From positions 14,335 through 78,334 of the IMG/VR virus record IMGVR_UViG_3300012924_000001: a DNA stretch of 64,000 nt. One strand, given 5' to 3'. How positions within the stretch are numbered: position 1 is the first letter of the stretch; every line of letters starts with the position of its first letter. Below the pieces are notes generated by a model. The model made no database searches. It saw only the letters and a list, made by a program, of their open reading frames with translations, and had not been told where the DNA came from. The stretch comes from a virus. The position numbers were made by a program, and so were the translations under genes. This document shows, piece after piece, positions 31,165-64,000 of the stretch.

Positions 31165-31665
31165 ATGCTTACGGTTCCTTTTTGCTTAGACGTCCTTAGT
31201 GACCTTTTATTTTATGATTCTTTTCCAGATGGGTTCATAATTTTTATAACTAATAGCCAGAATAAACCACCTGTTCCTTATAGATGGGATTTGACATCTA
31301 CGGCTACAGTAGACGGTGTTAATGTTATAAAGCCCACTACCATTATTTCAGGTGATCCCGGAAGGTGGATCAATCAGATTGGTGGCAATACAAGGGTGGA
31401 AATTATTACCGGAACAACGGACGCCAATGGTAATATAACAACAACATGGGCGACTGCGTTTGCGGGTATTCCTCATCTGTCCCCTACTATTGAAGGAGGA
31501 GCGGCAAATCAAACCTTAACAGTGACTAGTAACACGGCCTCTGGATTTACTGTAAATGTAAAACAAAGGAACAGTGTTTCCTTGCTCGGAATAGATGTAT
31601 TATTGTCCACCACTGTGAATGTGGCTGGAATATTCGTTAGGATAATGGCAACAGAAAAAATATAA
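31165..31665 (+). CDS. Small tail-fibre-related protein
   Basis: YRWD..STATVDG..VIKP...GRW module plus a C-terminal beta domain. Confidence 0.55.
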   Translation: MLTVPFCLDVLSDLLFYDSFPDGFIIFITNSQNKPPVPYRWDLTSTATVDGVNVIKPTTIISGDPGRWINQIGGNTRVEIITGTTDANGNITTTWATAFAGIPHLSPTIEGGAANQTLTVTSNTASGFTVNVKQRNSVSLLGIDVLLSTTVNVAGIFVRIMATEKI

Positions 31666-31669
31666 TGTC

Positions 31670-31930
31670 ATGGCAGACAAAAAAACAATCATCAGTATTC
31701 TGCATCCTACGCCTGCATGGGCTAATTGGGCCTTTAGGATTGTTTTCCTATTAAATAAGGTAGTGATTGGTATGGTTGCATCAGATCCAGGAATTGATGC
31801 AGAAACAAAAGTGCGTATAGGGTTGTATCTCTCAGGCCTGGATACCTTTGTATGGGGTATTAGTAGGATTTTTGGAGTGAAAGTACAAGATGAGGAAGCC
31901 CCTAAGCCAGAAAACACACAAATTAAATGA
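31670..31930 (+). CDS. Putative holin
   Basis: 86 aa, two hydrophobic segments, charged C-terminus, after the tail genes. Confidence 0.55.
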   Translation: MADKKTIISILHPTPAWANWAFRIVFLLNKVVIGMVASDPGIDAETKVRIGLYLSGLDTFVWGISRIFGVKVQDEEAPKPENTQIK

Positions 31931-53598: not shown

Positions 53599-53862
53599 TT
53601 ATATCTGATCCATTTCAATGTTACTTCCAAAGAGGTGTGGATTTTCAAACTGTAACAGTATATTTAGTCTCAAAAGGATTAATATACTTTCCCGGTTAAG
53701 GTCTTCAAATTCCTGGTCAGCCTTGTAAAGGTTGTATGCTTCTTTCTTTATTCCTTCTTGTTCTTTATCGTACTTCTCTTGATCAATCTGTGACATCCCC
53801 CTGTTCAGTAAATAACGCCTTTTTAGACTTTTAACTTTCCGGTTTAATTCAGCTTTTGTCAT
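53599..53862 (-). CDS. Hypothetical protein, paralog of 57229..57504
   Basis: Shared IK.EA..LY..D...R.NI.L.FE.PH.FGS motif. Confidence 0.65.
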   Translation of the reverse strand: MTKAELNRKVKSLKRRYLLNRGMSQIDQEKYDKEQEGIKKEAYNLYKADQEFEDLNRESILILLRLNILLQFENPHLFGSNIEMDQI

Positions 53863-53919
53863 AAATTAATTGTTTTATGGTTTGAAAATATGATAGTCTT
53901 ACGGGACTATCCGTTATGT

Positions 53920-54186
53920 TTATCTTCCTTTAAAACTGTCAATGAGTGGTCTATAATTCTCATAAGCAGCATTCAAAGTACGTTCAACAAAATCCTTTCT
54001 GAAGTGGTAGGGAGCCTCTTTAGGCTTAACTCCTCTTTCGTAATAGTCTTTTAGCTGGTCCTGGCTCCATTCCTCCCACGCTTGTTTAATTGCGGTGTCT
54101 ATTGTATTGTACAGTGAGGAATCAAACATCTCCGCTTTGTGGTTGGCGATCTCGATGGCAATACGGTTATATAGTGGCTGTGGCAT
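53920..54186 (-). CDS. Hypothetical protein, small-gene array
   Basis: Co-oriented ORF. Confidence 0.6.
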   Translation of the reverse strand: MPQPLYNRIAIEIANHKAEMFDSSLYNTIDTAIKQAWEEWSQDQLKDYYERGVKPKEAPYHFRKDFVERTLNAAYENYRPLIDSFKGR

Positions 54187-54197
54187 AATGAAAAGAT

Positions 54198-54455
54198 TTA
54201 ATGGTGAATAAGAGGGATATTACTAGCGTGTTGTTGTGCCAACATTGTAAGATGGCAGTTAATTTCCCATTGCAATGAGTCATTGAGGCCGGAAATAAAA
54301 ATTAAAAGATTATCGGCTGTTCTTCTTTTGCCGATTAGAAAGGCCTGATCTGAGGCCGGGATGTCTCTAAAGATCGTGTTAATTAGTTGGGCTGCACCCA
54401 ATGTGTTTAACTGTTCGTAGGCGTGTAGCAGCGGTTGAATTGTTGTTTGTTCCAT
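54198..54455 (-). CDS. Hypothetical protein, small-gene array
   Basis: Co-oriented ORF. Confidence 0.6.
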   Translation of the reverse strand: MEQTTIQPLLHAYEQLNTLGAAQLINTIFRDIPASDQAFLIGKRRTADNLLIFISGLNDSLQWEINCHLTMLAQQHASNIPLIHH

Positions 54456-54480
54456 AGATGTTAAAGTGTGTGGTGAATAA

Positions 54481-54891
54481 TCAATATTGAAATTCTGAAT
54501 AATGCCAGTTCTTTGGCTGTTGTCTATTCCAGCATTCTAACAATAGTTTACCATTCTCAGCGGTAAGGCCATATATAAAACTACAGCCTTCCTTATTACT
54601 GGGGAGGTGTTTCCATTTGTACCAGTATTCTGAAGCGCCTTTATAATACTCATGGGTATACGATATACCCTTCGATCCAGTATGTTCACTTAGCCACATT
54701 ACATCGTTGTAACTTTTTGGATCAACATTTAATTTAAAGGTCAGAATGTTGCCGTACTCTGGAATGTTGTATTTGTCCCTCCAAAGGGAATACATTGTTA
54801 AGGCCTCATTAGGTGTAATCACTTCTGGACTGATAGTTGAAAATTCAATAGTCCCCAAAAATTCTTCTATGTTATAAACTGCATATGTCAT
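54481..54891 (-). CDS. Hypothetical protein, small-gene array
   Basis: Co-oriented ORF. Confidence 0.6.
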   Translation of the reverse strand: MTYAVYNIEEFLGTIEFSTISPEVITPNEALTMYSLWRDKYNIPEYGNILTFKLNVDPKSYNDVMWLSEHTGSKGISYTHEYYKGASEYWYKWKHLPSNKEGCSFIYGLTAENGKLLLECWNRQQPKNWHYSEFQY

Positions 54892-54932
54892 TTTATTCGG
54901 TTTTAGTGAACACCCGGCATGTACCGGGCCGC

Positions 54933-54960
54933 ACGGTTTTTACGCCCTAATCACTCTGTA
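54933..54960. repeat. 28-bp direct repeat, copy 1
   Basis: ACGGTTTTTACGCCCTAATCACTCTGTA; one mismatch to 55452-55479. Confidence 0.9.
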
Positions 54961-55406
54961 AAATCAGTTTCTTTTGGCCATTCTGTAGGCGATATCCAAT
55001 TATCAGAACCACCGCTACCGTCCATATCTGCAAGTTCTACGGCTATATGCTGCTCAAGGGTTAAACCGTTAATACTCTTGCCCCCCTCAATAATAGAAGC
55101 GGCAAATTCTTGTGCAATTTTATATGCAAAATCGTACATCTGTGAGCTACTGAAGTCCCTGTCGTCTTGCGGTTCTAACTCATCGTATGGGATTGGGGAA
55201 ACTCCCTTTTTCATAGTAAAGCCATTGAACCACTTTCCAACTAAGGAAGATGCTATAGATAATGCAATCCCTTTGTCAGTCAGTTTATTTATGATGGTTT
55301 TTTCTGAGTAATTTTGATGTTTAAGAAAAAAGTTGTTAATCCAATTTTGGATATTTTCCGAGAAATACAGTTCGCGGAGGTCTTCAAATTTGATTTCATT
55401 TTCCAT
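54951..55406 (-). CDS. Acidic hypothetical protein
   Basis: ORF lying between the two 28-bp repeats. Confidence 0.6.
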   Translation of the reverse strand: MENEIKFEDLRELYFSENIQNWINNFFLKHQNYSEKTIINKLTDKGIALSIASSLVGKWFNGFTMKKGVSPIPYDELEPQDDRDFSSSQMYDFAYKIAQEFAASIIEGGKSINGLTLEQHIAVELADMDGSGGSDNWISPTEWPKETDFTE

Positions 55407-55451
55407 GGTAGTATATTTTAGTTTTTTGAATGTTGAATGAATACTGGAGGA

Positions 55452-55479
55452 ACGGTTTTTACGCCCTAATCACCCTGTA
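55452..55479. repeat. 28-bp direct repeat, copy 2
   Basis: ACGGTTTTTACGCCCTAATCACCCTGTA. Confidence 0.9.
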
Positions 55480-55703
55480 GCACCTACTTTGATCCATTCA
55501 TTAAAGCCTAAATTAAAACGTATAGGATCGTTTTTTCGTAACAAAACGCCAAGTATATGGTTGGCATGAGCGCTATATATAACGGAGCGTGCTATTTTGC
55601 CGTTTTTAAAGTAGCAAAATTGTTCGTATGCCTCTTCAGCTGAGTAAATATCCGCGAAAAGGTCATTTAAGTAGTCGGTATATGCTTTTTTGGTCTTATT
55701 CAT
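55470..55703 (-). CDS. Hypothetical protein (LRKNDPIRFNLGFNEW motif)
   Basis: Recurrent phage early-gene motif. Confidence 0.6.
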   Translation of the reverse strand: MNKTKKAYTDYLNDLFADIYSAEEAYEQFCYFKNGKIARSVIYSAHANHILGVLLRKNDPIRFNLGFNEWIKVGATG

Positions 55704-55705
55704 TT

Positions 55706-56278
55706 TCAATCTTTTGAATGTTGAATAAAAATTGGTTCTACGGGTATGCTGTGAATAGCGCCGGTAAAATGGCCCTTATCAAAAGCGCTTCCTAATGAGG
55801 TAAAAGTAACCTCATCTGTATTGCGCACTACCTTTTTTAGTGTCTCTGTATTGGGCTTATGTTCGCCAGCATAAATAGCGATAGATTGGTAGGGAAGTAT
55901 TTGCATCATATTCGCTATTCTTTTTCGTGGTAGTAGATATTTAATAAATAAGCAATTATCATACTGGGCATAGTTTCGTACATATACATTTACTAGAGTG
56001 CAAATAAAAGAGGTGCAATATCCCCATTCTCCCGACCTAACGATAGTTGCTTTCTTGTCAAGTAAAGAGTTTAACTTGTTAACTGTGTCCTGTAAGAAAT
56101 CCGGGATGGGATATACTGACCACGCTAAGCGGTCTACTTCCATATGCATATCGCGCTCAAATATACGTCCGCTTGCAAAGACTATATCATAAAGTTCTGA
56201 AAGCGCACCCCTATTGCGCAGGGGACCATGTTTGATAAATAATTCAATTGCTTTTTCTTTGATCTGTTCGTTTGTCAT
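55706..56278 (-). CDS. Hypothetical protein, small-gene array
   Basis: ATGA overlap at 56275-56278 supports this start. Confidence 0.6.
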   Translation of the reverse strand: MTNEQIKEKAIELFIKHGPLRNRGALSELYDIVFASGRIFERDMHMEVDRLAWSVYPIPDFLQDTVNKLNSLLDKKATIVRSGEWGYCTSFICTLVNVYVRNYAQYDNCLFIKYLLPRKRIANMMQILPYQSIAIYAGEHKPNTETLKKVVRNTDEVTFTSLGSAFDKGHFTGAIHSIPVEPIFIQHSKD

Positions 56279-56553
56279 AATGATGATTTTATCTTTTTTA
56301 AATGCTTCTTGCAAAACCATCCCGAAAAGACGCTGCATTGATAATATGTTGTTTTGTATCCTACAGCCTGTTTTTTACAGTGCCATGCGCTACAGACGGG
56401 TAGGTCAAAGCTAACGTCCTTTATGCGCTCTGTTTTCACTCCAAAGCTGTCTGTATAGAACGGTACTCGCTTTTCCTGCGCCTGTGAAAATAGGGGTAGC
56501 AGAATGAGAATTATTATATGCTTCATTTGGTACGATGTTTTATGTGTTTCCAT
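56275..56553 (-). CDS. Small protein with signal-peptide-like segment
   Basis: MKHIIILILLPLFSQA-Q; four Cys. Confidence 0.5.
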   Translation of the reverse strand: METHKTSYQMKHIIILILLPLFSQAQEKRVPFYTDSFGVKTERIKDVSFDLPVCSAWHCKKQAVGYKTTYYQCSVFSGWFCKKHLKKIKSSL

Positions 56554-56563
56554 ACAAGTATAT

Positions 56564-56821
56564 TTAAAGAGTGATTTTTATTTCTTTTATACCGAGCGCT
56601 TTTGCATAAGAAGCGAGAAACGCAATACCTCCGTTTTGTTTGGTTCGGTTCAATTCACTTTCAAAATGTGTAATATTAGTACGGTTACATCTTACTCTTT
56701 TCGCTAAATCTTCTATTGAGATGTTAAGGACATCTCTAAATAGTTTCATTTGCTGACCTGTATGTTTGTCCGCATTTATTGTAACTGATTTTAGTTTGAC
56801 GTCTTTTCGCTGTCTTTTCAT
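56564..56821 (-). CDS. XRE-family HTH protein
   Basis: ISIEDLAKRVRCNRTNITHFE...YAKALG. Confidence 0.75.
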   Translation of the reverse strand: MKRQRKDVKLKSVTINADKHTGQQMKLFRDVLNISIEDLAKRVRCNRTNITHFESELNRTKQNGGIAFLASYAKALGIKEIKITL

Positions 56822-56822
56822 T

Positions 56823-57209
56823 TTATTGTAATTCAGCTTTACTTAACTCTTCACAAAATTCCTTAAACTCTTCTGTGTAATTCCCCTCTTCGTCGAATAC
56901 TTCATAATCAATAGAGTCATACTCGCAAAAAAGAGGGTAATTTTCTTTTGAATTATATGTTGTTTTGAAAAACAATGGTGTCTCATTCAGGGTGAAAGTG
57001 ATATTCATAACAGTCAAATGACCATCACTTACAAGCCCAATTACAAATGGTTCTCCGTCATGCTCGAATTGCATGTCATTCAAACCAAAGCCCTCATGAA
57101 TAAGTATTGTTAACCTGCCAATACATTTTAATAGCTTTGATACGTTGTAGGCGTCACGCGGCAACACGTGAAAAAAGCCTGTATCTATTGTTTGCCCTGT
57201 GTGGTACAT
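56823..57209 (-). CDS. Hypothetical protein, small-gene array
   Basis: Co-oriented ORF. Confidence 0.6.
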   Translation of the reverse strand: MYHTGQTIDTGFFHVLPRDAYNVSKLLKCIGRLTILIHEGFGLNDMQFEHDGEPFVIGLVSDGHLTVMNITFTLNETPLFFKTTYNSKENYPLFCEYDSIDYEVFDEEGNYTEEFKEFCEELSKAELQ

Positions 57210-57228
57210 ATATTTTTTGTTTGAAGGA

Positions 57229-57504
57229 TTATAATTGTTTTATATCTATACTGCTGCCAAAACGATGTGGCTCCTCAAAACGAAGATGGATATTTATACG
57301 CATCAATATTTTTAGACTACCTAAACTCATTATTTCAATTTTCAGATCAAGAAGATATAATCTTAATGCCTCTTCTTTAATATGCCCCATTTCTGTATGA
57401 TAAGCGTCTTCCTTTTTTTCTTGGGCCTTTAAATAATGATTCTTTAGCTTTTTGATTTGGTTATTATATTGACGGGATGTTAATGTTTTTTGTGTGTTTT
57501 CCAT
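57229..57504 (-). CDS. Hypothetical protein, paralog of 53599..53862
   Basis: Shared motif. Confidence 0.65.
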   Translation of the reverse strand: MENTQKTLTSRQYNNQIKKLKNHYLKAQEKKEDAYHTEMGHIKEEALRLYLLDLKIEIMSLGSLKILMRINIHLRFEEPHRFGSSIDIKQL

Positions 57505-57515
57505 GCTTATATAAT

Positions 57516-57719
57516 TTAAGCGGTTACTTCAGACTTGTATAATTCGTATGCGGCTTTCCGTAAAGCTGTTGGGGTAAGGTAAAACTTGCCATTGCCATGC
57601 AGTTCATTACGGCCAAGATATTCCGCTACTTTATTTTGCACAGTAGTACGCGGTTCTTTTATCGGCTCTTTGAGTTTCTTACACGCGGTTTGGAATTGAT
57701 TCCATGTTAGTTTGTCCAT
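57516..57719 (-). CDS. Hypothetical protein, small-gene array
   Basis: Co-oriented ORF. Confidence 0.6.
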   Translation of the reverse strand: MDKLTWNQFQTACKKLKEPIKEPRTTVQNKVAEYLGRNELHGNGKFYLTPTALRKAAYELYKSEVTA

Positions 57720-57739
57720 ATGCTATAATTAAATGGTGA

Positions 57740-58156
57740 TTAATAGGTTTTGAATGCGCGTTTCAGCGTTCTTTTAGCGGAGGTATGGTATTCACTATCC
57801 GAGTTAAAATAGTCGTTAATATACTCCTTTAAATGGTCACACTCGGCACTATTGGACCATTCTATTTGCAAGGGAGTGTAGTTTTTAAAATAATCCTTAT
57901 CCGTATCACCTTCCTGAACGGCGAAGCGGCCTAACAGCCCTGCCATAGCTACTAGGCTGTCAATCCCATAAAGTATAGACGGTTTGAAATCTTTTCCACT
58001 AAATAACTCTTTACCGTTCCACCAAAAAGAGTAACGTACATTATCGCCCCCTGTATAAAATGTATAACAGGCAATTTTTAGCTTGCGCATTATCAGGGTA
58101 GATAACAGATTTTCATCTGCTAACAATTGTTCGTGTGTGGGCTGTTTTGTTTCCAT
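57740..58156 (-). CDS. Hypothetical protein, small-gene array
   Basis: Co-oriented ORF; GDTDKDYF..YTP.Q.EW motif. Confidence 0.6.
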   Translation of the reverse strand: METKQPTHEQLLADENLLSTLIMRKLKIACYTFYTGGDNVRYSFWWNGKELFSGKDFKPSILYGIDSLVAMAGLLGRFAVQEGDTDKDYFKNYTPLQIEWSNSAECDHLKEYINDYFNSDSEYHTSAKRTLKRAFKTY

Positions 58157-58164
58157 ATTAAAAG

Positions 58165-58440
58165 TTATTTAATACATGCGGTTATTGTTTGTCCTGTAGC
58201 GCTTACCTGGATGGGTTTACCAATGTTGGCAAGAATAGTCTCATATTCCTGGGTAGCTATTTTGATAGCTTCCGCGTACTTTTCGGAGTTATCAAACACT
58301 TTCAGCTCTAAGGGTCTGAAATAAACATGCGCTATCGTATGATAGTCCCCAGCCGTTTCTTTGCGCTTATCTGCGTATACATAAGCATTCGGATAAGTGC
58401 CAATGAATAGCCAATCAGGGATTACAATTTTTGTGTTCAT
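58165..58440 (-). CDS. Hypothetical protein, small-gene array
   Basis: Co-oriented ORF. Confidence 0.6.
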   Translation of the reverse strand: MNTKIVIPDWLFIGTYPNAYVYADKRKETAGDYHTIAHVYFRPLELKVFDNSEKYAEAIKIATQEYETILANIGKPIQVSATGQTITACIK

Positions 58441-58499
58441 AGTATACAGTTTTAAGTATTAATCAATAAACTCAATGACTTTATTCTTTGTTTGTATTA

Positions 58500-58880
58500 T
58501 CAAAAAATAATTTCACCGTAAAATACAGTCTGTAGTAAAACATCAGCGGTTACGGCATCGTCTATGTCATTTATAAAATCGCTTAAATAATCAAACGGCA
58601 TTTTTGAGACGCCTATATGTACGTCTGATAGTTTAATTTGTTTTATACCCTCACTTCCTTCCTTATCCTCAAACGATAGCGTTCCCCCATCCTTTAAAAT
58701 TTGCATCCAAACATCTTCAATGCAGGGGTTTGTTAGTGAGGCCTTGGCTGTCTTATACTCCTGTTCATCGTAGGTCAATTCAATTCCGTGAGCGGCCATA
58801 TACCCACTGCTAACAGCATTACAGAGGGCCAAATGAAAGTACTTTTCTGATTCCTCATGCGTTAATAATATCTGTGCCAT
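58500..58880 (-). CDS. Hypothetical protein (DAVTADVLLQ...GEII motif) directly downstream of hammerhead 1
   Basis: Recurrent phage motif. Confidence 0.65.
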   Translation of the reverse strand: MAQILLTHEESEKYFHLALCNAVSSGYMAAHGIELTYDEQEYKTAKASLTNPCIEDVWMQILKDGGTLSFEDKEGSEGIKQIKLSDVHIGVSKMPFDYLSDFINDIDDAVTADVLLQTVFYGEIIF

Positions 58881-58897
58881 ATTCTTTATTTTTATTT

Positions 58898-58950
58898 GGT
58901 TAAGACCCCGCTTGTCGGGGTTTCACAGAGTAACCGATCATCAGTTAACC
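58898..58950 (-). ncRNA. Type I hammerhead ribozyme (variant), HH1
   Basis: GGUUAA-CUGAUGA-UCGG UUACU CUGU-GAAA-CCCCG ACAAG CGGGG-UC^UUAACC. Confidence 0.85.
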
Positions 58951-58958
58951 TTTAGTCC

Positions 58959-59129
58959 TCATCCGGGGTATGTAATGGGAGTTGTCATCCATTCCGTATC
59001 TATTACTAGCACATTCGCTGTGCTGAATATCTCATACTCAGAATTTTGTTCTAGTTCCTCAATGGCATCCGCTACACTGAGAGCGGACTGTATCTTTATT
59101 TTGATGATAGCATAAATTGTTGTTTCCAT
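58959..59129 (-). CDS. Small acidic protein (56 aa, not in ORF track)
   Basis: METTIYAIIKIK...; preceded by TAACCTTTAAAC. Confidence 0.65.
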   Translation of the reverse strand: METTIYAIIKIKIQSALSVADAIEELEQNSEYEIFSTANVLVIDTEWMTTPITYPG

Positions 59130-59161
59130 AATAAATAAGTTTAAAGGTTATTAATACTATT

Positions 59162-59347
59162 CTATACCAAACTAAAATTACGCCACCATGAGCCAATAGT
59201 ATGCCGTTGTCCTAGATCATTGGTTACGGTTACTTCCATTAATGCAGCAACGCTTTCAATCGGGTTTTTAAGCTCATACGTGCGGCCTTTAGTAAAGCAT
59301 TTACCAAGGTTATACAGGTCTTTTTTCGCTTTTATTTTCGTGTACAT
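59162..59347 (-). CDS. Hypothetical protein, small-gene array
   Basis: Co-oriented ORF. Confidence 0.6.
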   Translation of the reverse strand: MYTKIKAKKDLYNLGKCFTKGRTYELKNPIESVAALMEVTVTNDLGQRHTIGSWWRNFSLV

Positions 59348-59348
59348 A

Positions 59349-59591
59349 TCAATGTAGTTTAGCGGTTAATTTTGTTTGAAAGCGGCCCCCAAAGGAAAAG
59401 TAGGTGTTACATGGTTCTATTTCCTTACGGTCAAAATGCATTTTTGCGTCATCTGGGGTTATCCAGCCGTTTGTAATGGCCTTGTTGATCTCTGTAGGAG
59501 TATACAGTTCATCCCTTACCAGAAAGGTATTGGAAAAGTGGACACTCAGAGGGACTTGATCTGAACTTTTTTTCACTTTGTAGTATAACAT
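59349..59591 (-). CDS. Hypothetical protein, small-gene array
   Basis: Co-oriented ORF; ELYTP...YFSFG.RF motif. Confidence 0.6.
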   Translation of the reverse strand: MLYYKVKKSSDQVPLSVHFSNTFLVRDELYTPTEINKAITNGWITPDDAKMHFDRKEIEPCNTYFSFGGRFQTKLTAKLH

Positions 59592-59612
59592 ATATAGTGG
59601 TTTTAGGATTAT

Positions 59613-59867
59613 TTAATCGGCCATTAGTGGCTGTTTGGCTATGTGTGTTACCAGCATTCGGACAGCGAGAACGTTTAATTGTTCTAGCGCGCTGATAGCC
59701 GATTCCGCTGTATAATATGCATGTGTGCGCATCTGTTTAAGTGACTTGTTTCTACATTTGCCATCTGAATAGTGGTAAGTACGTCCGGCGCTATCGACAA
59801 TATACCAGTAGGTAGTAGCACGACCAGCTAAGAAGTATCGATTGCTCTTTATAGTGTACAGGTACAT
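59613..59867 (-). CDS. Hypothetical protein, small-gene array
   Basis: Start at MYLYTIK after an A-rich leader. Confidence 0.55.
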   Translation of the reverse strand: MYLYTIKSNRYFLAGRATTYWYIVDSAGRTYHYSDGKCRNKSLKQMRTHAYYTAESAISALEQLNVLAVRMLVTHIAKQPLMAD

Positions 59868-59889
59868 AATAATGTAGTTTAAGGAGTAT

Positions 59890-60420
59890 CTAAAAATCAA
59901 AATCGATAACAACTGTAGTTCCTTTCTTCTTACCAAAGCCACCCCCTAACACGTCATTAAATGGCACATACCAGTATTTACGCGCCTGGTGGTTATATCC
60001 TTGCGCCACATATACCTGAGCGGATACACGGCCACCCTTAAACAGGAGCTTAAAGTAATCGCCCTTTTTAACCTTCTCAATTGTGGTTTGGCCTTGTATC
60101 TTATTGATAATTTCCGCATTCGCTTTGATTACCATATCCAGCCTATTACTTATGTCATTAAGAGCTATCGTATTACCTTCCCGTTGTAGCTTATCGGCAA
60201 GGGCACTTAACCCATCTACAGGCACGGTTTGAGCGTTATAAATCTCATTTACATAAGCGGCTTTAGTCCTTCCCATCGCTCCACACACAGTACAGCGTAC
60301 CTGAGAAGATTTAGTAGGTTTTATCTTACCAGTGCGATAACTCCAATAGTGCCTGTATTGCGTAATTACATATTTGCTTCTATCGCGTGGCCTGCATTGG
60401 CAGGAAAATCGTATTGACAT
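59890..60420 (-). CDS. Hypothetical protein with N-terminal Zn-ribbon
   Basis: CQC...CTVC. Confidence 0.6.
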   Translation of the reverse strand: MSIRFSCQCRPRDRSKYVITQYRHYWSYRTGKIKPTKSSQVRCTVCGAMGRTKAAYVNEIYNAQTVPVDGLSALADKLQREGNTIALNDISNRLDMVIKANAEIINKIQGQTTIEKVKKGDYFKLLFKGGRVSAQVYVAQGYNHQARKYWYVPFNDVLGGGFGKKKGTTVVIDFDF

Positions 60421-60430
60421 AATAACAGGT

Positions 60431-60676
60431 TTACAGGTTATTGAAAGAGGGCTGATAACCGATCATACCCTTGTGTAACATACCAACTATAGTAAACTCT
60501 GATTCGCTGCCGTTTAGCGTTATTCCGTCCATATGTGTTAATCCTATGCAATAATCATTCAGCAGGCATATAATAAGATACTGCCCTATGCGGTCTTTAA
60601 TAACACGATAAGCAGTAGATGCCCACTGTACATTGTGACCTGAATCAACAGCTTGTTTAATTTCTGTAACTGTCAT
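60431..60676 (-). CDS. Hypothetical protein, small-gene array
   Basis: Co-oriented ORF. Confidence 0.6.
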   Translation of the reverse strand: MTVTEIKQAVDSGHNVQWASTAYRVIKDRIGQYLIICLLNDYCIGLTHMDGITLNGSESEFTIVGMLHKGMIGYQPSFNNL

Positions 60677-60696
60677 AATAGAGTTCGGTTTAAAGG

Positions 60697-60966
60697 TTAA
60701 TACATTTTATCTATGGGCAGATGTTCGCCCCCGTCTGCATCCCTACAGATTGCGCGGTAGCCAGCACAATCAATGGCCGGTCTATTTTCATGTGCGAGGC
60801 GCTTTACTTGCGTTTCAAGTGCCAATAATTCGTCATTATCCCCCTCATCTTCTTGTGGGGAATAATCAGCTACAAAGGGCATTGTGAAATAAGGCCAATC
60901 CTGCGTCAATTGTCCGTTGTGGTCTAATTTCCATATTTCTAGTGTCCAATTATTATTTGTTTCCAT
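60697..60966 (-). CDS. Acidic hypothetical protein directly downstream of hammerhead 2
   Basis: Co-oriented ORF. Confidence 0.6.
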   Translation of the reverse strand: METNNNWTLEIWKLDHNGQLTQDWPYFTMPFVADYSPQEDEGDNDELLALETQVKRLAHENRPAIDCAGYRAICRDADGGEHLPIDKMY

Positions 60967-60988
60967 CTGAAAAGATTTAAAGGTTATT

Positions 60989-61041
60989 GACTAATAGGGG
61001 CCTTTTACCCCTTTCACGTAATAAACGATCATCGGTTAGCC
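60989..61041 (-). ncRNA. Type I hammerhead ribozyme (variant core CCGAUGA), HH2
   Basis: GGCUAA-CCGAUGA-UCGU UUAUU ACGU-GAAA-GGGGU AAAAG GCCCC-UA^UUAGUC. Confidence 0.75.
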
Positions 61042-61052
61042 TTGTAATAGGT

Positions 61053-61358
61053 TTAAAGGAATTTATAAATAAGCCTGATACTCACTATATCCCCTTCTTT
61101 GCTATCTATCTGTACCGTGTTTATGTCTATGACTGAAAATTCATCTTTTTTAGGCCAATCAACCCAGCTGTCTTTAAAAGCCTGATCTTTTTCTCGCCAT
61201 GTTTTTAGGGCAAAAGAATTGCTTTGTACGATAGATACTTCCCTTTCATCATGTAGCTGTATGAGCTTTAGATTCCCCTGTTTGTCTGCCCAATGTAATT
61301 CAGAATATATTTTTGTACCAGGGGTAACACGTTTTTTGAAGTCTGAAATAGTCTGCAT
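61053..61358 (-). CDS. Hypothetical protein, small-gene array
   Basis: Start at MQTISDF after the TAACCTTTAAAC motif. Confidence 0.6.
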   Translation of the reverse strand: MQTISDFKKRVTPGTKIYSELHWADKQGNLKLIQLHDEREVSIVQSNSFALKTWREKDQAFKDSWVDWPKKDEFSVIDINTVQIDSKEGDIVSIRLIYKFL

Positions 61359-61368
61359 AGTAATAGGT

Positions 61369-61560
61369 TTAAAGGTTAAGGTTTTTAATATAGTTTTTTG
61401 CAACTGTCCATGCCTTACTGCGCGTGGGTTGGGCAGCGTTTAAATAAAAACTATCCGATATAGTTTTACTATAAAACATTATAACAGGATAGTATTGTAC
61501 ATGCCCTTTGTGATTTGATTTGGACGTGGAGGGCTTGTAAGTTACGTTTTGCTGTGCCAT
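61369..61560 (-). CDS. Hypothetical protein, small-gene array
   Basis: Preceded by the motif. Confidence 0.6.
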   Translation of the reverse strand: MAQQNVTYKPSTSKSNHKGHVQYYPVIMFYSKTISDSFYLNAAQPTRSKAWTVAKNYIKNLNL

Positions 61561-61571
61561 AATCTAATGGT

Positions 61572-61835
61572 TTACAGGTTATCATTGATGTGTTGAACGA
61601 TGGCTGTATAAGTGGAGTCCGGCACTGGCTCCCGCTGTATTTTGGGCAGGAAGGGGGAGATAGGGTACAACTGCACACGATATACAGGCAGTTCATTTGA
61701 CTTGTCCTGTGTGATAAAGATATGCAGGCCGTCCGGCGCATTGTCTGCTATCCAGTCCATGAGTAATTCAAGGGCCGGGCCTTCCTTTGATATAAGGAGG
61801 GCGTTTTTATTGATAAGATAATATGCTTTGTTCAT
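61572..61835 (-). CDS. Hypothetical protein, small-gene array
   Basis: Preceded by a motif variant. Confidence 0.6.
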   Translation of the reverse strand: MNKAYYLINKNALLISKEGPALELLMDWIADNAPDGLHIFITQDKSNELPVYRVQLYPISPFLPKIQREPVPDSTYTAIVQHINDNL

Positions 61836-61846
61836 GATACGATAGT

Positions 61847-62038
61847 TTAAAGAGTTTGTAGTTTTAAAAGTATATCGGTCCAGTATGCAACAATGGTTAT
61901 ATCATCGGTATAGTATATGACATTGGGGTCATTCCACATTGTACGCTCCTGTGCCTGCTCTATTGCTTTATTTAGATCGGTAACCTCAATAGACTTGCCT
62001 AATAGATCAGTTATGTAAATTTTGTTTGTAGTGTCCAT
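61847..62038 (-). CDS. Hypothetical protein, small-gene array
   Basis: IEVTDLNKAIEQA...YWTD motif. Confidence 0.6.
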   Translation of the reverse strand: MDTTNKIYITDLLGKSIEVTDLNKAIEQAQERTMWNDPNVIYYTDDITIVAYWTDILLKLQTL

Positions 62039-62055
62039 AGTATGTTAGTTAAGAG

Positions 62056-62379
62056 TTATTGATTAATATACAGTGTAGCATACTGATACCCCCAAAAATT
62101 AGACTGTATGAGCAGCATGTTTTTGCTGTTCCTTATAGCTATTTTCATACAGTCATTAACAAATTGCTGAGTGTCCTTAATTAATCTTGGACCAACAATA
62201 CTAAAATCAAAACTATAGAAGCTATGTTTTGTATCAACGGTTGTTCTACAGGTATCAATCTCGCAAACAATAGCCTTGTTTTGCTTGGCATAGTCATATA
62301 CTATAGTAACCTGCTCAGCGGGTGATAATTCATTAATGTTTGCCGGTAAGCCTATTATATTGGGAATGGTGATTGCCAT
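62056..62379 (-). CDS. Hypothetical protein, small-gene array
   Basis: Preceded by a motif variant. Confidence 0.6.
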   Translation of the reverse strand: MAITIPNIIGLPANINELSPAEQVTIVYDYAKQNKAIVCEIDTCRTTVDTKHSFYSFDFSIVGPRLIKDTQQFVNDCMKIAIRNSKNMLLIQSNFWGYQYATLYINQ

Positions 62380-62389
62380 AAGAACAGGT

Positions 62390-62629
62390 TTAAAGATTAT
62401 AGTTAGGATGTGCGGTCATCTTTAGCAAGGGACTAACGCACACGTGTTGAAATGTGATAGGGTCTGTAACTGCCCATAAGAGCCTGTGGCGGTCCGCTGG
62501 CTTGTAAGACTTGTAGTTGATACGCTGATCTATTGTAAGCTCAAAATACGGGCTGTAATAGCCGTGGAAATGATTTTGAAAGATGATACTACGGAAGGTA
62601 AGTTGCTGGGAAGTGTTGTTTGTGGTCAT
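62390..62629 (-). CDS. Hypothetical protein, small-gene array
   Basis: Preceded by the motif. Confidence 0.55.
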   Translation of the reverse strand: MTTNNTSQQLTFRSIIFQNHFHGYYSPYFELTIDQRINYKSYKPADRHRLLWAVTDPITFQHVCVSPLLKMTAHPNYNL

Positions 62630-62662
62630 AGTATGTTAGTTTAAAGGTTAAGAGTGATCCAC

Positions 62663-62959
62663 TCAAATGTTATACGGTAACTGGTACAATTCTGTACTGT
62701 TAAGGGTATAAAAATGCACGGGTTCAGCTTGCCGCTGTTCAATAAATGTCACATACTCATCAAAGGACACTTCTTTGGGGTCACGCCCATTTAAGTACAT
62801 ATTGAGTGAAGCGTCCTTTGTGTCGTTGCGCATAGCGAAGGTGTTAAAGGCTGTATCAGGCTGTTGGTCATTGGCAACTATGTATATTACTATACCTTGT
62901 TCAAAGAGCAGCCGCGCCTGTCTGTGTGTGATTTCTAACAATGTTAGGGTGTGGTTCAT
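62663..62959 (-). CDS. Hypothetical protein, small-gene array
   Basis: Preceded by a motif variant. Confidence 0.6.
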   Translation of the reverse strand: MNHTLTLLEITHRQARLLFEQGIVIYIVANDQQPDTAFNTFAMRNDTKDASLNMYLNGRDPKEVSFDEYVTFIEQRQAEPVHFYTLNSTELYQLPYNI

Positions 62960-62969
62960 AGTAAACAGG

Positions 62970-63341
62970 TTAAAGGTTATTAGATTCCATTTTAACAGGC
63001 GCTAAATACTCCCGCGTGCCGATATGCTTAAAGAGTAGTGCAGCGCTGCCTGTATCCGCGTCTTTCATCCCCATGTACATATAATGACCCGCAAAGTTAG
63101 GGGACGCGGGATCAGCAGATAATATACCGGCGTTGATAGCATGAGCAAAGCAGTCTTTTGCGCTTGGACCGTTTATAGGGAAGCTCTTTTTAAGGTCCTC
63201 AATCTGCTGCTTAATTGTTAAGCGAGTAGCGGGATCAATAGTACGAACCATACGCGCAGTGAGCAGCTCAATGAGCTTATGGGGATCGGTAGTGTTAGCG
63301 ATCATGCGATCTATGATAATAGTCATGTTCATTCCGTTCAT
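62970..63341 (-). CDS. Hypothetical protein (YMYMG...FKHI.TREYL motif)
   Basis: Preceded by the motif. Confidence 0.6.
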   Translation of the reverse strand: MNGMNMTIIIDRMIANTTDPHKLIELLTARMVRTIDPATRLTIKQQIEDLKKSFPINGPSAKDCFAHAINAGILSADPASPNFAGHYMYMGMKDADTGSAALLFKHIGTREYLAPVKMESNNL

Positions 63342-63359
63342 GATATATAAGTTTAAAGG

Positions 63360-63563
63360 TTAAAGTGAATTGATTTCATTATCTAAAAGGTGGTGCCCCG
63401 CTTCCACGTACTTTGTGGCATATACTTCAAAGCCGTCTCCTTCAGGGAAGCGCGTTTTGAAGTCGTTATAGATGGCTTTAAGCGCTTTACCGCTTGTAAT
63501 ACTGCGCTTATGAGTGGCAAAATAATGTACGCCTTTAAGTGACACGATAATTTCGTAGTACAT
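63360..63563 (-). CDS. Hypothetical protein (YEIIVSL.G.HYFAT..RSI motif)
   Basis: Recurrent phage early-gene family. Confidence 0.65.
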   Translation of the reverse strand: MYYEIIVSLKGVHYFATHKRSITSGKALKAIYNDFKTRFPEGDGFEVYATKYVEAGHHLLDNEINSL

Positions 63564-63573
63564 ACAATGTAGT

Positions 63574-63801
63574 TTAAAGGGTTGATGAATGTGTAATGTC
63601 TACCATATCCCCGGCCTTTACTACTTTCTTACGTAAGCGGGCGTGATATTTAGCTTCCTGTAAGGCGACGGCGTCCTGTCCTATACGAGTCCAGTTTGCG
63701 AAATCTTTATCAGTCTCATAGATAACAATATATGTTGCTGTTATATACGGTTGTGTCGCAAAGATAAAATTACCTTCTTTGGTGGTTATTGCGGTATGCA
63801 T
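63574..63801 (-). CDS. Hypothetical protein, small-gene array
   Basis: Preceded by the motif. Confidence 0.6.
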   Translation of the reverse strand: MHTAITTKEGNFIFATQPYITATYIVIYETDKDFANWTRIGQDAVALQEAKYHARLRKKVVKAGDMVDITHSSTL

Positions 63802-63819
63802 AGTTATGTAGTTTAAAGG

Positions 63820-64000
63820 TTATTCAGCAATAGTAACTTTATAATACCCTTTGGGATCAATCCAGTACTTAAACCCCCCATTGTCACACGTATTGGTTTG
63901 TTCTATCAATTCATATGCACAATCAGCTAGTGTCTCCTGCGCTAATGTATAGAAAAGTCCCTGTAAGGTTGGTTCGTTACGTTGTTCTTTTGCTTCATTG
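63820..64000 (-). CDS. 3' part of a gene truncated by the window end
   Basis: Open frame ...GFKYWIDPKGYYKVTIAE* whose TAA begins the motif. Confidence 0.55.
   Translation of the reverse strand, partial: NEAKEQRNEPTLQGLFYTLAQETLADCAYELIEQTNTCDNGGFKYWIDPKGYYKVTIAE

What the first reader, a model, noticed from the sequence alone, without database searches (positions are those of the whole stretch)
58892..58950. Intergenic variant hammerhead ribozyme HH1 predicted to cut 23 nt before a gene start
Seen: the minus strand reads GGUUAA CUGAUGA U CGG UUACU CUG U GAAA CCCCG ACAAG CGGGG UC UUAACC, i.e. a complete hammerhead core with stems I-III and a GUC cleavage triplet (cut between 58904 and 58903), in the sense of the small-gene transcript. 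Known: this is type I hammerhead topology, and stem II normally opens with a purine-pyrimidine pair. Here it opens with U-U, which is also seen in HH2, so it looks like a conserved variant. Inference: self-cleavage gives ORF 58500..58880 its own 5'-OH mRNA end with a 23-nt leader.
Basis: partly seen in the sequence, partly recalled or inferred. Interest (0 to 1): 0.85.

Follow-up and report, generated by a model that had tools for sequence, protein, structure and literature searches.

The report
Phage hammerhead ribozyme before a gene
This is very probably a genuine self-cutting hammerhead RNA lying between two small genes of an uncultivated soil phage, where it would trim the message 23 bases before the next gene; the layout and its odd U-U pair are both already known from phages, so it is a good new example, not a new kind of thing.

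Summary
The motif is there as described: minus strand 58950..58898, type I order, cut predicted between 58904 and 58903, 23 nt before the ATG at 58880.

Rfam's hammerhead models do not see it, even at E<=10. They also miss, or barely see, clear phage type I hammerheads, so that failure says little.

- A model built only from 21 other phage hammerheads with the same U10.1-U11.1 opening scores HH1 at 48.2 bits and the second copy, HH2, at 47.8. Nothing else in the 78-kb genome scores significantly.
- Two distant homologues of the downstream gene carry a canonical type I hammerhead at the same place. Both have the same stem I (GGUUAA/UUAACC), cut 24 and 22 nt before the ATG, and have compensating changes in stems II and III.
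- Three other homologues carry a twister-sister ribozyme there.

The U-U opening and gene-flanking phage hammerheads were described by Perreault et al. 2011.

Weak points: a G-U wobble where 21 of 21 subfamily members have G-C, a rival hairpin 3.4 kcal/mol more stable, and no RNA data.

The scan has found many phage hammerheads before, including HH2 in this genome.

Verdict: a real ribozyme (about 0.8), a new member of a known kind, of modest interest.

The parts
58945..58950 (-). Stem I, 5' strand (GGUUAA)
   Evidence: Pairs with 58898-58903. The same stem I is found in the hammerheads before homologous genes in L159 and L240.
58938..58944 (-). Core C3-A9 (CUGAUGA)
   Evidence: Exact consensus.
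58925..58937 (-). Stem II element: U10.1, CGG, loop UUACU, CUG, U11.1 (a U-U opening, then C-G, G-U, G-C)
   Evidence: It has the same 13-nt layout as 21 or more independent phage hammerheads. The G-U lies where 21 of 21 of them have G-C. Loop positions 1, 3 and 5 (U, A, U) match the subfamily.
58922..58924 (-). Core G12 A13 A14
58905..58921 (-). Stem III hairpin: A15.1-U16.1 plus CCCCG/CGGGG, loop ACAAG
   Evidence: It covaries with ACGCCC/GGGCGU in L159 and ACGGCA/UGCCGU in L240.
58904..58904 (-). C17; predicted cut on its 3' side, between 58904 and 58903
   Evidence: Position follows from the hammerhead numbering applied. Cleavage itself is not shown.
58898..58903 (-). Stem I, 3' strand (UUAACC); it would become the first 6 nt of the downstream mRNA
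58881..58897 (-). A-rich leader (17 nt) between stem I and the ATG
   Evidence: The 3' flank AAA fits the subfamily. The leader resembles those of L159 and L240.
58500..58880 (-). Downstream gene: 126-aa acidic protein of unknown function, widespread in phages
   Evidence: No Pfam or PHROG family.
58959..59129 (-). Upstream 56-aa ORF, whose message would end in the ribozyme body after the cut
   Evidence: No homologue found in the loci compared.
58927..58951 (-). Competing hairpin (7 bp UAACUGA/UCGGUUA plus 3 outer pairs) that sequesters stem I 5' strand, part of the core and stem II
   Evidence: The hammerhead fold is -12.6 kcal/mol against an MFE of -16.0 kcal/mol.
60989..61041 (-). HH2, the second copy of the same subfamily (CCGAUGA core, U-U opening)
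   Evidence: 47.8 bits.

Best explanation
HH1 is a functional type I hammerhead self-cleaving ribozyme. It belongs to a recurrent phage subfamily whose stem II opens with a U10.1-U11.1 mismatch. It is transcribed as part of a long minus-strand message that covers an array of small phage genes. Once stem I closes, the RNA cuts itself after C17 (58904). The upstream message is left ending in the ribozyme body with a 2',3'-cyclic phosphate. The message for gene 58500-58880 is left with a 5'-OH and a 23-nt A-rich leader. The likely purpose is to give that gene its own defined 5' end, uncoupling its stability and translation from whatever lies upstream. Shown here: the motif, its family membership, and its conserved position relative to the gene family. 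Inferred: the cleavage itself, the chemistry of the ends, and the effect on expression.
For: 1. All invariant core positions and all three helices are present. No motif this strong appears in 60 genome shuffles.

2. A truncated scan of viral contigs for the U-U frame gave 27 unique hammerheads from other phages. They share a 6-bp stem I, a 3-bp stem II with a 5-nt loop, and a variable stem III. A start codon follows the cut in 23 of the 27, by 12-54 nt.

3. Model R2, built from 21 of these and none from this window, scores HH1 at 48.2 bits (E 1.5e-10) and HH2 at 47.8 bits. These are the only two significant hits in the genome.

4. In that alignment, 10 of 12 modelled pairs show changes on both sides.

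5. Features outside the model also fit. Loop II is U-N-A-N-U. A is found at -1 and -3, and AAA follows stem I.

6. Homologues of the downstream gene in L159 and L240 carry a canonical type I hammerhead with the identical stem I. They cut 24 and 22 nt before the ATG and have different, compensating stems II and III. In L159 the gene is bracketed by hammerheads.

7. Homologues in L003, L147 and L171 carry a twister-sister ribozyme at that spot. For L003 this is RF02681 at 35.6 bits against a gathering score of 34, E 9e-7.

8. Literature: the U10.1-U11.1 opening occurs in natural hammerheads and is the best tolerated mismatch. Clustered phage hammerheads cut polycistronic RNA in vitro and in E. 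coli. The HF1/HF2 hammerhead lies 13 nt before a start codon, with a mapped 5' end within 3 nt of the cut (PMC3088659).
Against: - No Rfam hammerhead family matches, even at E<=10 on a 151-nt stretch, whereas a canonical phage hammerhead gets 24 bits in the same mode.
- Stem II is weak. It has a G-U wobble at the position that is G-C in 21 of 21 subfamily members, and loop position 4 is C, which no other member has.
- The hammerhead fold is 3.4 kcal/mol less stable than a competing 5'-proximal hairpin. That is the largest genuine gap in the set.
- There is no close relative in which selection on HH1 itself could be read.
- The sequences in alignment A3 were preselected for paired stems, so the 100% pairing is partly built in.
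Confidence: 0.8

Rival explanations
1. HH1 is a decaying or very slow copy. It descends from a working hammerhead, but the weak stem II and the competing hairpin leave it with little or no cleavage. The sequence then persists only as a leftover of the gene cassette, or as a slow ribozyme that depends on conditions.
For: There is a G-U where 21 of 21 relatives have G-C. Loop position 4 is C, which is unique. The rival hairpin is 3.4 kcal/mol more stable and forms first during transcription. No Rfam hit. Perreault et al. report slow and inactive phage variants.
Against: Every invariant core base is intact. A G-U still pairs. Stem II with only 2 bp, or even 1 bp, is active in natural hammerheads (PMC3088659). 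Stems I and III are perfect, and the conserved flanks and loop positions are kept. L056, another member, has a similar 3.1 kcal/mol gap.
Confidence: 0.14
2. The conserved ribozyme sequence acts mainly at the DNA level, as a shared junction at which phages exchange gene cassettes by recombination. RNA cleavage would then be secondary.
For: A related soil strain (X7) replaces exactly 58462..58961 with 838 other bases. That is the gene plus HH1, starting at the stop codon of the upstream ORF. The HH2 region 60976-61045 is kept in X4 and X7 while both of its flanks are exchanged. The gene occurs in unrelated neighbourhoods.
Against: Stems covary while the core stays fixed, which is selection on RNA structure, not on DNA identity. 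The cassette boundary in X7 lies outside HH1, not within it. Different ribozyme classes occupy the same spot.
Confidence: 0.04
3. It is a chance motif, or just a hairpin such as a terminator, with no ribozyme function.
For: The weak Rfam hits are to terminator-like hairpins. The z-score of the fold is only -1.9.
Against: No U run follows the hairpin, and the terminator scan does not list it. No comparable motif appeared in 60 shuffles. E is 1.5e-10 with an independent model. Hammerheads with the same stem I lie before homologous genes.
Confidence: 0.02

Closest known systems
Clustered intergenic hammerhead ribozymes of phages and prophages (Perreault et al. 2011, PLoS Comput Biol, PMC3088659)
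   Same: A hammerhead lies between co-oriented phage genes, with several copies per genome flanking single genes. The proposed role is processing long transcripts into gene-length mRNAs. Natural variants with a U10.1-U11.1 opening and very short stem II are described there.
   Different: Most bacterial and phage examples stressed there are type II with a pseudoknot. This one is a minimal type I with an open 6-bp stem I and no loop I. It has not been assayed.
HHphage of haloviruses HF1/HF2 (PMC3088659, discussion)
   Same: The hammerhead lies a few nucleotides (13) before the start codon of an early gene. The mapped 5' end of the transcript lies within 3 nt of the cut.
   Different: That is a different core variant, active only at high salt, in an archaeal virus. 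Here the distance is 23 nt and no end has been mapped.
Canonical type I hammerheads before homologues of the same gene (L159:1429-1479, L240:1424-1480)
   Same: They share the same stem I (GGUUAA/UUAACC), the same position (cut 22-24 nt before the ATG), a similar leader and a homologous downstream protein.
   Different: Their stem II opens with the standard G10.1-C11.1 pair and has 4 bp. HH1 has U-U plus 3 bp including a G-U.
Twister-sister ribozyme (Rfam RF02681; Weinberg et al. 2015, as cited in PMC10085705)
   Same: It occupies the same place before homologues of the gene (L003, L147, L171). The literature already notes that different self-cleaving classes turn up in the same gene neighbourhoods.
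   Different: It has an unrelated fold and active site. The position of its cut relative to the mRNA was not worked out here.
Rfam Hammerhead_1 (RF00163), Hammerhead_HH9 (RF02275), RAGATH-1-hammerhead (RF03152)
   Same: They have the same catalytic core and type I connectivity.
   Different: None of these models scores HH1, HH2 or the other U-U members at E<=10. They give only 21-26 bits, below gathering, to canonical phage type I copies.
Synthetic ribozyme insulators such as RiboJ (from my own knowledge, not checked here)
   Same: A hammerhead placed just before a ribosome-binding region cuts away the upstream RNA, so that expression no longer depends on context.
   Different: RiboJ is engineered from a satellite RNA hammerhead and carries an added hairpin. 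HH1 is natural, and its effect on expression is untested.

Membership tests
Hammerhead ribozyme, type I | Core C3-U4-G5-A6-N7-G8-A9 | tested here: met
   CUGAUGA at 58944-58938.
Hammerhead ribozyme, type I | Core G12-A13-A14, then an A15.1-U16.1 pair | tested here: met
   GAA at 58924-58922. A at 58921 pairs with U at 58905.
Hammerhead ribozyme, type I | Cleavage-site nucleotide H17 (not G) followed by stem I | tested here: met
   C at 58904, giving the triplet GUC.
Hammerhead ribozyme, type I | Three helices around the core in the order I(5') - II hairpin - III hairpin - I(3') | tested here: met
   Stem I has 6 bp, stem II has 3 bp, stem III has 6 bp.
Hammerhead ribozyme, type I | Standard base pair at 10.1-11.1 (usually G-C) | tested here: not met
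   It is U-U (58937 and 58925). This is a documented natural exception (PMC3088659 section 8) and recurs in at least 27 other phage copies.
Hammerhead ribozyme, type I | Stems supported by compensatory changes among relatives | tested here: met
   HH1, L159 and L240 have the same stem I and different but paired stems II and III. In the subfamily alignment, 10 of 12 pairs change on both sides (the sequences were preselected for pairing).
Hammerhead ribozyme, type I | Reaches the gathering score of an Rfam hammerhead model | tested here: not met
   No hammerhead family at E<=10. As a control, clear phage type I copies also stay below gathering.
Hammerhead ribozyme, type I | Tertiary contact between stem I and loop II that allows fast cleavage at cellular Mg | tested here: inconclusive
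   The conserved U-N-A-N-U loop and the conserved A's flanking the 6-bp stem I hint at a contact, and HH1 keeps them. No pairing scheme was established.
Hammerhead ribozyme, type I | Mg-dependent self-cleavage giving 2',3'-cyclic phosphate and 5'-OH ends | not testable with these tools
   No RNA run holds the sequence.
Phage type I hammerhead subfamily with a U10.1-U11.1 opening (defined here by model R2) | 6-bp stem I; CUGAUGA-U; 3-bp stem II with a 5-nt loop; U-GAAA; significant score with a model built without the window | tested here: met
   48.2 bits, E 1.5e-10, full length 1-62. The training members score 48-65 bits.
Phage type I hammerhead subfamily with a U10.1-U11.1 opening (defined here by model R2) | Lies just upstream of a gene start in the sense strand | tested here: met
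   HH1 cuts 23 nt before the ATG. In 23 of the other 27 members a start codon follows the cut, by 12-54 nt.
Intrinsic terminator | G+C-rich hairpin followed by a U run | tested here: not met
   The hairpin is followed by UCUUAACCAAAUAAAA, and the scan does not list it.

The most novel reading that the evidence does not exclude
These copies may form a distinct structural subclass of minimal type I phage hammerheads with its own stem I to loop II contact. Its marks are the U10.1-U11.1 opening, a 3-bp stem II with a U-N-A-N-U loop, a stem I of exactly 6 bp, and conserved A's on both flanks. The current Rfam models miss the subclass completely, so many such ribozymes in phage genomes would be unannotated. 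In HH1, the competing 5' hairpin could additionally make cleavage slow or conditional.
Probability: 0.3. Interest if true: 0.4.

Novelty: new member of a known kind. Interest (0 to 1): 0.25.

Why it matters
It adds a well-supported example of phages placing a self-cutting RNA directly before a gene. It also adds an unusually clean comparison: the same gene family is preceded in different phages by a U-U hammerhead, a canonical hammerhead, or a twister-sister ribozyme. That argues that the cut matters, not the particular ribozyme, and it offers a simple system for testing why phage genes want their own 5'-OH end. On the practical side, the standard Rfam models miss this hammerhead subfamily, so routine annotation undercounts phage ribozymes.

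Tried and rejected
- **Rfam at gathering score** on the whole window gave nothing. Rfam in E-value mode on the window, on 52-64 kb and on 151 nt gave no ribozyme family.
- **Rfam sensitivity depends on how much sequence is given.** The twister-sister hit of L003 disappears when 6.4 kb or 134 kb are searched. Whole-window blanks therefore mean little.
- **blastn of 57500-60500 against deposited phages** gave no match.
- **Model R1.** It was built from hammerheads found with HH1's own stem III as the search pattern, and it scores HH1 at 39.5 bits. I do not count this, because the pattern biases it. R1 also misses HH2.
- **R1 and R2 on the loci L002-L006** found no hammerhead, because those loci carry twister-sister.
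- **RNA evidence.** No RNA holder is listed for this stretch.
- **Contigs of four soil runs** gave no variant of HH1 itself. X2 is identical over 58924-59299, X7 replaces the cassette, and X3 and X4 do not cover it.
- **Pfam and PHROGs** found no family for the neighbouring small proteins.
I used the search for related loci with an alignment instead.
- **ARAGORN** found no tRNA in loci whose upstream regions look tRNA-like.
- **A loop II to leader pseudoknot** was looked at by eye only. The complement is perfect in HH2 and L056, is broken in HH1, and is absent in L022 and L033, so I did not pursue it.
- **Terminator reading** was rejected because there is no U run.
- **The other CUGAUGA sites** (46102 and 31689, minus strand) have no hammerhead context. 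The R2 hit at 31657-31701 (17.8 bits) lacks stem III.

Full report
**What is in the sequence**

The window is bases 14335-78334 of a 78,334-bp IMG/VR virus record with direct terminal repeats. DNA runs that hold it are soil metagenomes.

- Stem I is GGUUAA/UUAACC.
- The core is CUGAUGA.
- A single U precedes stem II, which is CGG/CUG around the loop UUACU, and a single U follows it.
- GAAA comes next, then stem III CCCCG/CGGGG around ACAAG, then U16.1 and C17.

The predicted cut is between 58904 and 58903. The leader from the cut to the ATG at 58880 is 23 nt. The upstream 56-aa ORF stops 8 nt before stem I. Every ORF in this part of the genome is on the minus strand, so the element lies in the sense of a long small-gene message. 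No minus-strand terminator-like site lies between the genes here; the only one sits inside gene 58500-58880.

**Is it more than chance?**

A scanner for all three hammerhead topologies found only this strong candidate in the whole genome. It found none of comparable strength in 60 shuffles.

There is no hit at gathering score. There is none at E<=10 on the window or on a 151-nt stretch with the laxest filters. RF00163, RF03152 and RF02275 run directly on the genome also give none.

Controls show that this failure says more about the models than about HH1:
- Textbook-looking phage type I hammerheads from other contigs stay below gathering.
- Such copies reach only 21-26 bits in E-value searches.
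- The U-U members in three other phage records are missed altogether.

**The subfamily**

A truncated scan of viral contigs for CUGAUGA-U-CG...YG-U-GAAA returned 114 matches. At least 27 unique ones are full hammerheads. They share:
- a stem I of exactly 6 bp;
- a 3-bp stem II with a 5-nt loop;
- a stem III that varies from 4 to 13 bp;
- H17 mostly A;
- a start codon following the cut in 23 of the 27, by 12-54 nt.

About 0.2 matches would pass these stem filters by chance. That figure is my own estimate from pairing odds.

I aligned 21 of them, none from this window (A3), and built model R2. R2 scores HH1 at 48.2 bits and HH2 at 47.8 bits. These are the only two significant hits in the genome. 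In A3, 10 of 12 modelled pairs change on both sides. The sequences were preselected for paired stems, so the 100% pairing is partly built in.

Features outside the model are also conserved, and HH1 keeps them:
- Loop II is U-N-A-N-U.
- A lies at -1 (24 of 27) and at -3 (23 of 27).
- AAA follows stem I.

HH1 departs from the subfamily in three ways:
- It has a G-U where 21 of 21 members have G-C.
- Loop position 4 is C.
- H17 is C, not A; GUC is the classic cleavage triplet, so this is harmless.

**Comparative evidence from the downstream gene**

The 126-aa protein has no Pfam or PHROG family. It does have many homologues in phage and metagenome contigs. I examined 97 unique upstream regions.

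Two carry a canonical type I hammerhead at the same place, with the very same stem I. L159 cuts 24 nt before the ATG and has stem II GGCC/GGCC. L240 cuts 22 nt before the ATG and has stem II GAUU/AAUC. Stem III differs in each but is paired. In L159 the gene is bracketed by hammerheads on both sides.

Three other unique regions carry a twister-sister ribozyme there. These are L003 with its duplicates, L147 and L171. For L003 the match is RF02681 at 35.6 bits against a gathering score of 34, E 9e-7. Its helices covary among the three regions.

The gene is the only one shared between this window's array and the L003-type loci. The ribozyme therefore goes with the gene or cassette, not with the neighbourhood.

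A related soil strain supports the cassette view. It replaces exactly 58462..58961, which is the gene plus HH1, starting at the upstream stop codon, with 838 other bases.

**Mechanism**

The most likely mechanism is co-transcriptional self-cleavage after C17. The upstream message would then end in the compact ribozyme body with a cyclic phosphate. The downstream gene would get a 5'-OH end and a 23-nt A-rich leader. The end chemistry follows from what is established for this ribozyme class (PMC6765202).

The biological reading is that phage transcripts are processed into gene-length mRNAs with their own stability and translation. This is the one proposed for clustered phage hammerheads (PMC3088659; PMC6765202). 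Here it gains support from the interchange of ribozyme classes before one gene family.

The cleavage itself, and any effect on expression, remain inferred.

**Doubts**

Stem II is weak. In isolation the hammerhead fold (-12.6 kcal/mol) loses to a 5'-proximal hairpin at 58951-58927 (MFE -16.0), a gap of 3.4 kcal/mol. Most relatives have the hammerhead fold as their MFE or within about 1 kcal/mol of it. L056 shows a similar gap of 3.1.

No RNA data exist, and no close relative carries HH1. I put the chance that it cleaves at a useful rate at about 0.8.

**Comparison with what is known, and novelty**

Perreault et al. 2011 already describe:
- hammerheads that flank genes in prophages and cut polycistronic RNA in vitro and in E. 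coli;
- natural hammerheads whose stem II opens with U10.1-U11.1, the best tolerated mismatch;
- a viral hammerhead 13 nt before a start codon with a matching mapped 5' end.

That different self-cleaving classes occur in the same gene neighbourhoods is also established (PMC10085705).

This scan has followed up several phage hammerheads before, including HH2 of this same genome.

HH1 is therefore a new member of a known kind. What is modestly new is the clean three-way substitution before one gene family, and the observation that the Rfam models miss this U-U subfamily.

Noticed in passing
window 60989-61041 (-): HH2 is a second hammerhead of the same U-U subfamily, with a CCGAUGA core (C at position 4). 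It scores 47.8 bits with R2. Its stem II element is identical to that of L056, and its stem I to that of L022 and L033.
   Followed up: partly
window 53724-63821 (-), e.g. 59140-59149, 60689-60698, 60976-60985, 61368-61377, 62640-62649, 63352-63361, 63812-63821: The motif AACCTTTAAA recurs about 10 nt before start codons of the small minus-strand genes. There are 27 matches with at most 1 mismatch, against 11 expected and none of 100 shuffles reaching 27. It may be a translation or promoter signal. Strain-level joints fall on it, for example at 60976.
   Followed up: no
L003:2917-2991, L147:1401-1470, L171:1394-1465: Twister-sister ribozymes lie directly before homologues of gene 58500-58880, and their helices covary among the three. 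Rfam reports the L003 copy only when a short stretch is searched.
   Followed up: partly
L159:1007-1057, 1429-1479, 1893-1941: Three type I hammerheads lie within 1 kb of a marine contig and bracket the homologous gene on both sides.
   Followed up: partly
L022:7495-10034: At least six hammerheads lie in about 2.5 kb of one phage contig, mixing canonical and U-U stem II forms.
   Followed up: no
window 58462-58961 and 60677-60976: In the contig of a related soil strain (run X7), the gene-plus-HH1 cassette is replaced by 838 other bases, and the gene after HH2 is deleted. The HH2 region itself is kept in X4 and X7.
   Followed up: partly
L178, L183, L242, L152 (about 40-90 nt before the homologous gene): The upstream regions end in sequences that look like a tRNA T arm plus acceptor end (GGTTCGANTCC...), but ARAGORN calls no tRNA there. 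They may be tRNA-like processing sites or attachment-site remnants.
   Followed up: partly
window 31657-31701 (-): A weak R2 match (17.8 bits, E 0.024) has CUGAUGAU but no stem III. It is probably chance.
   Followed up: partly
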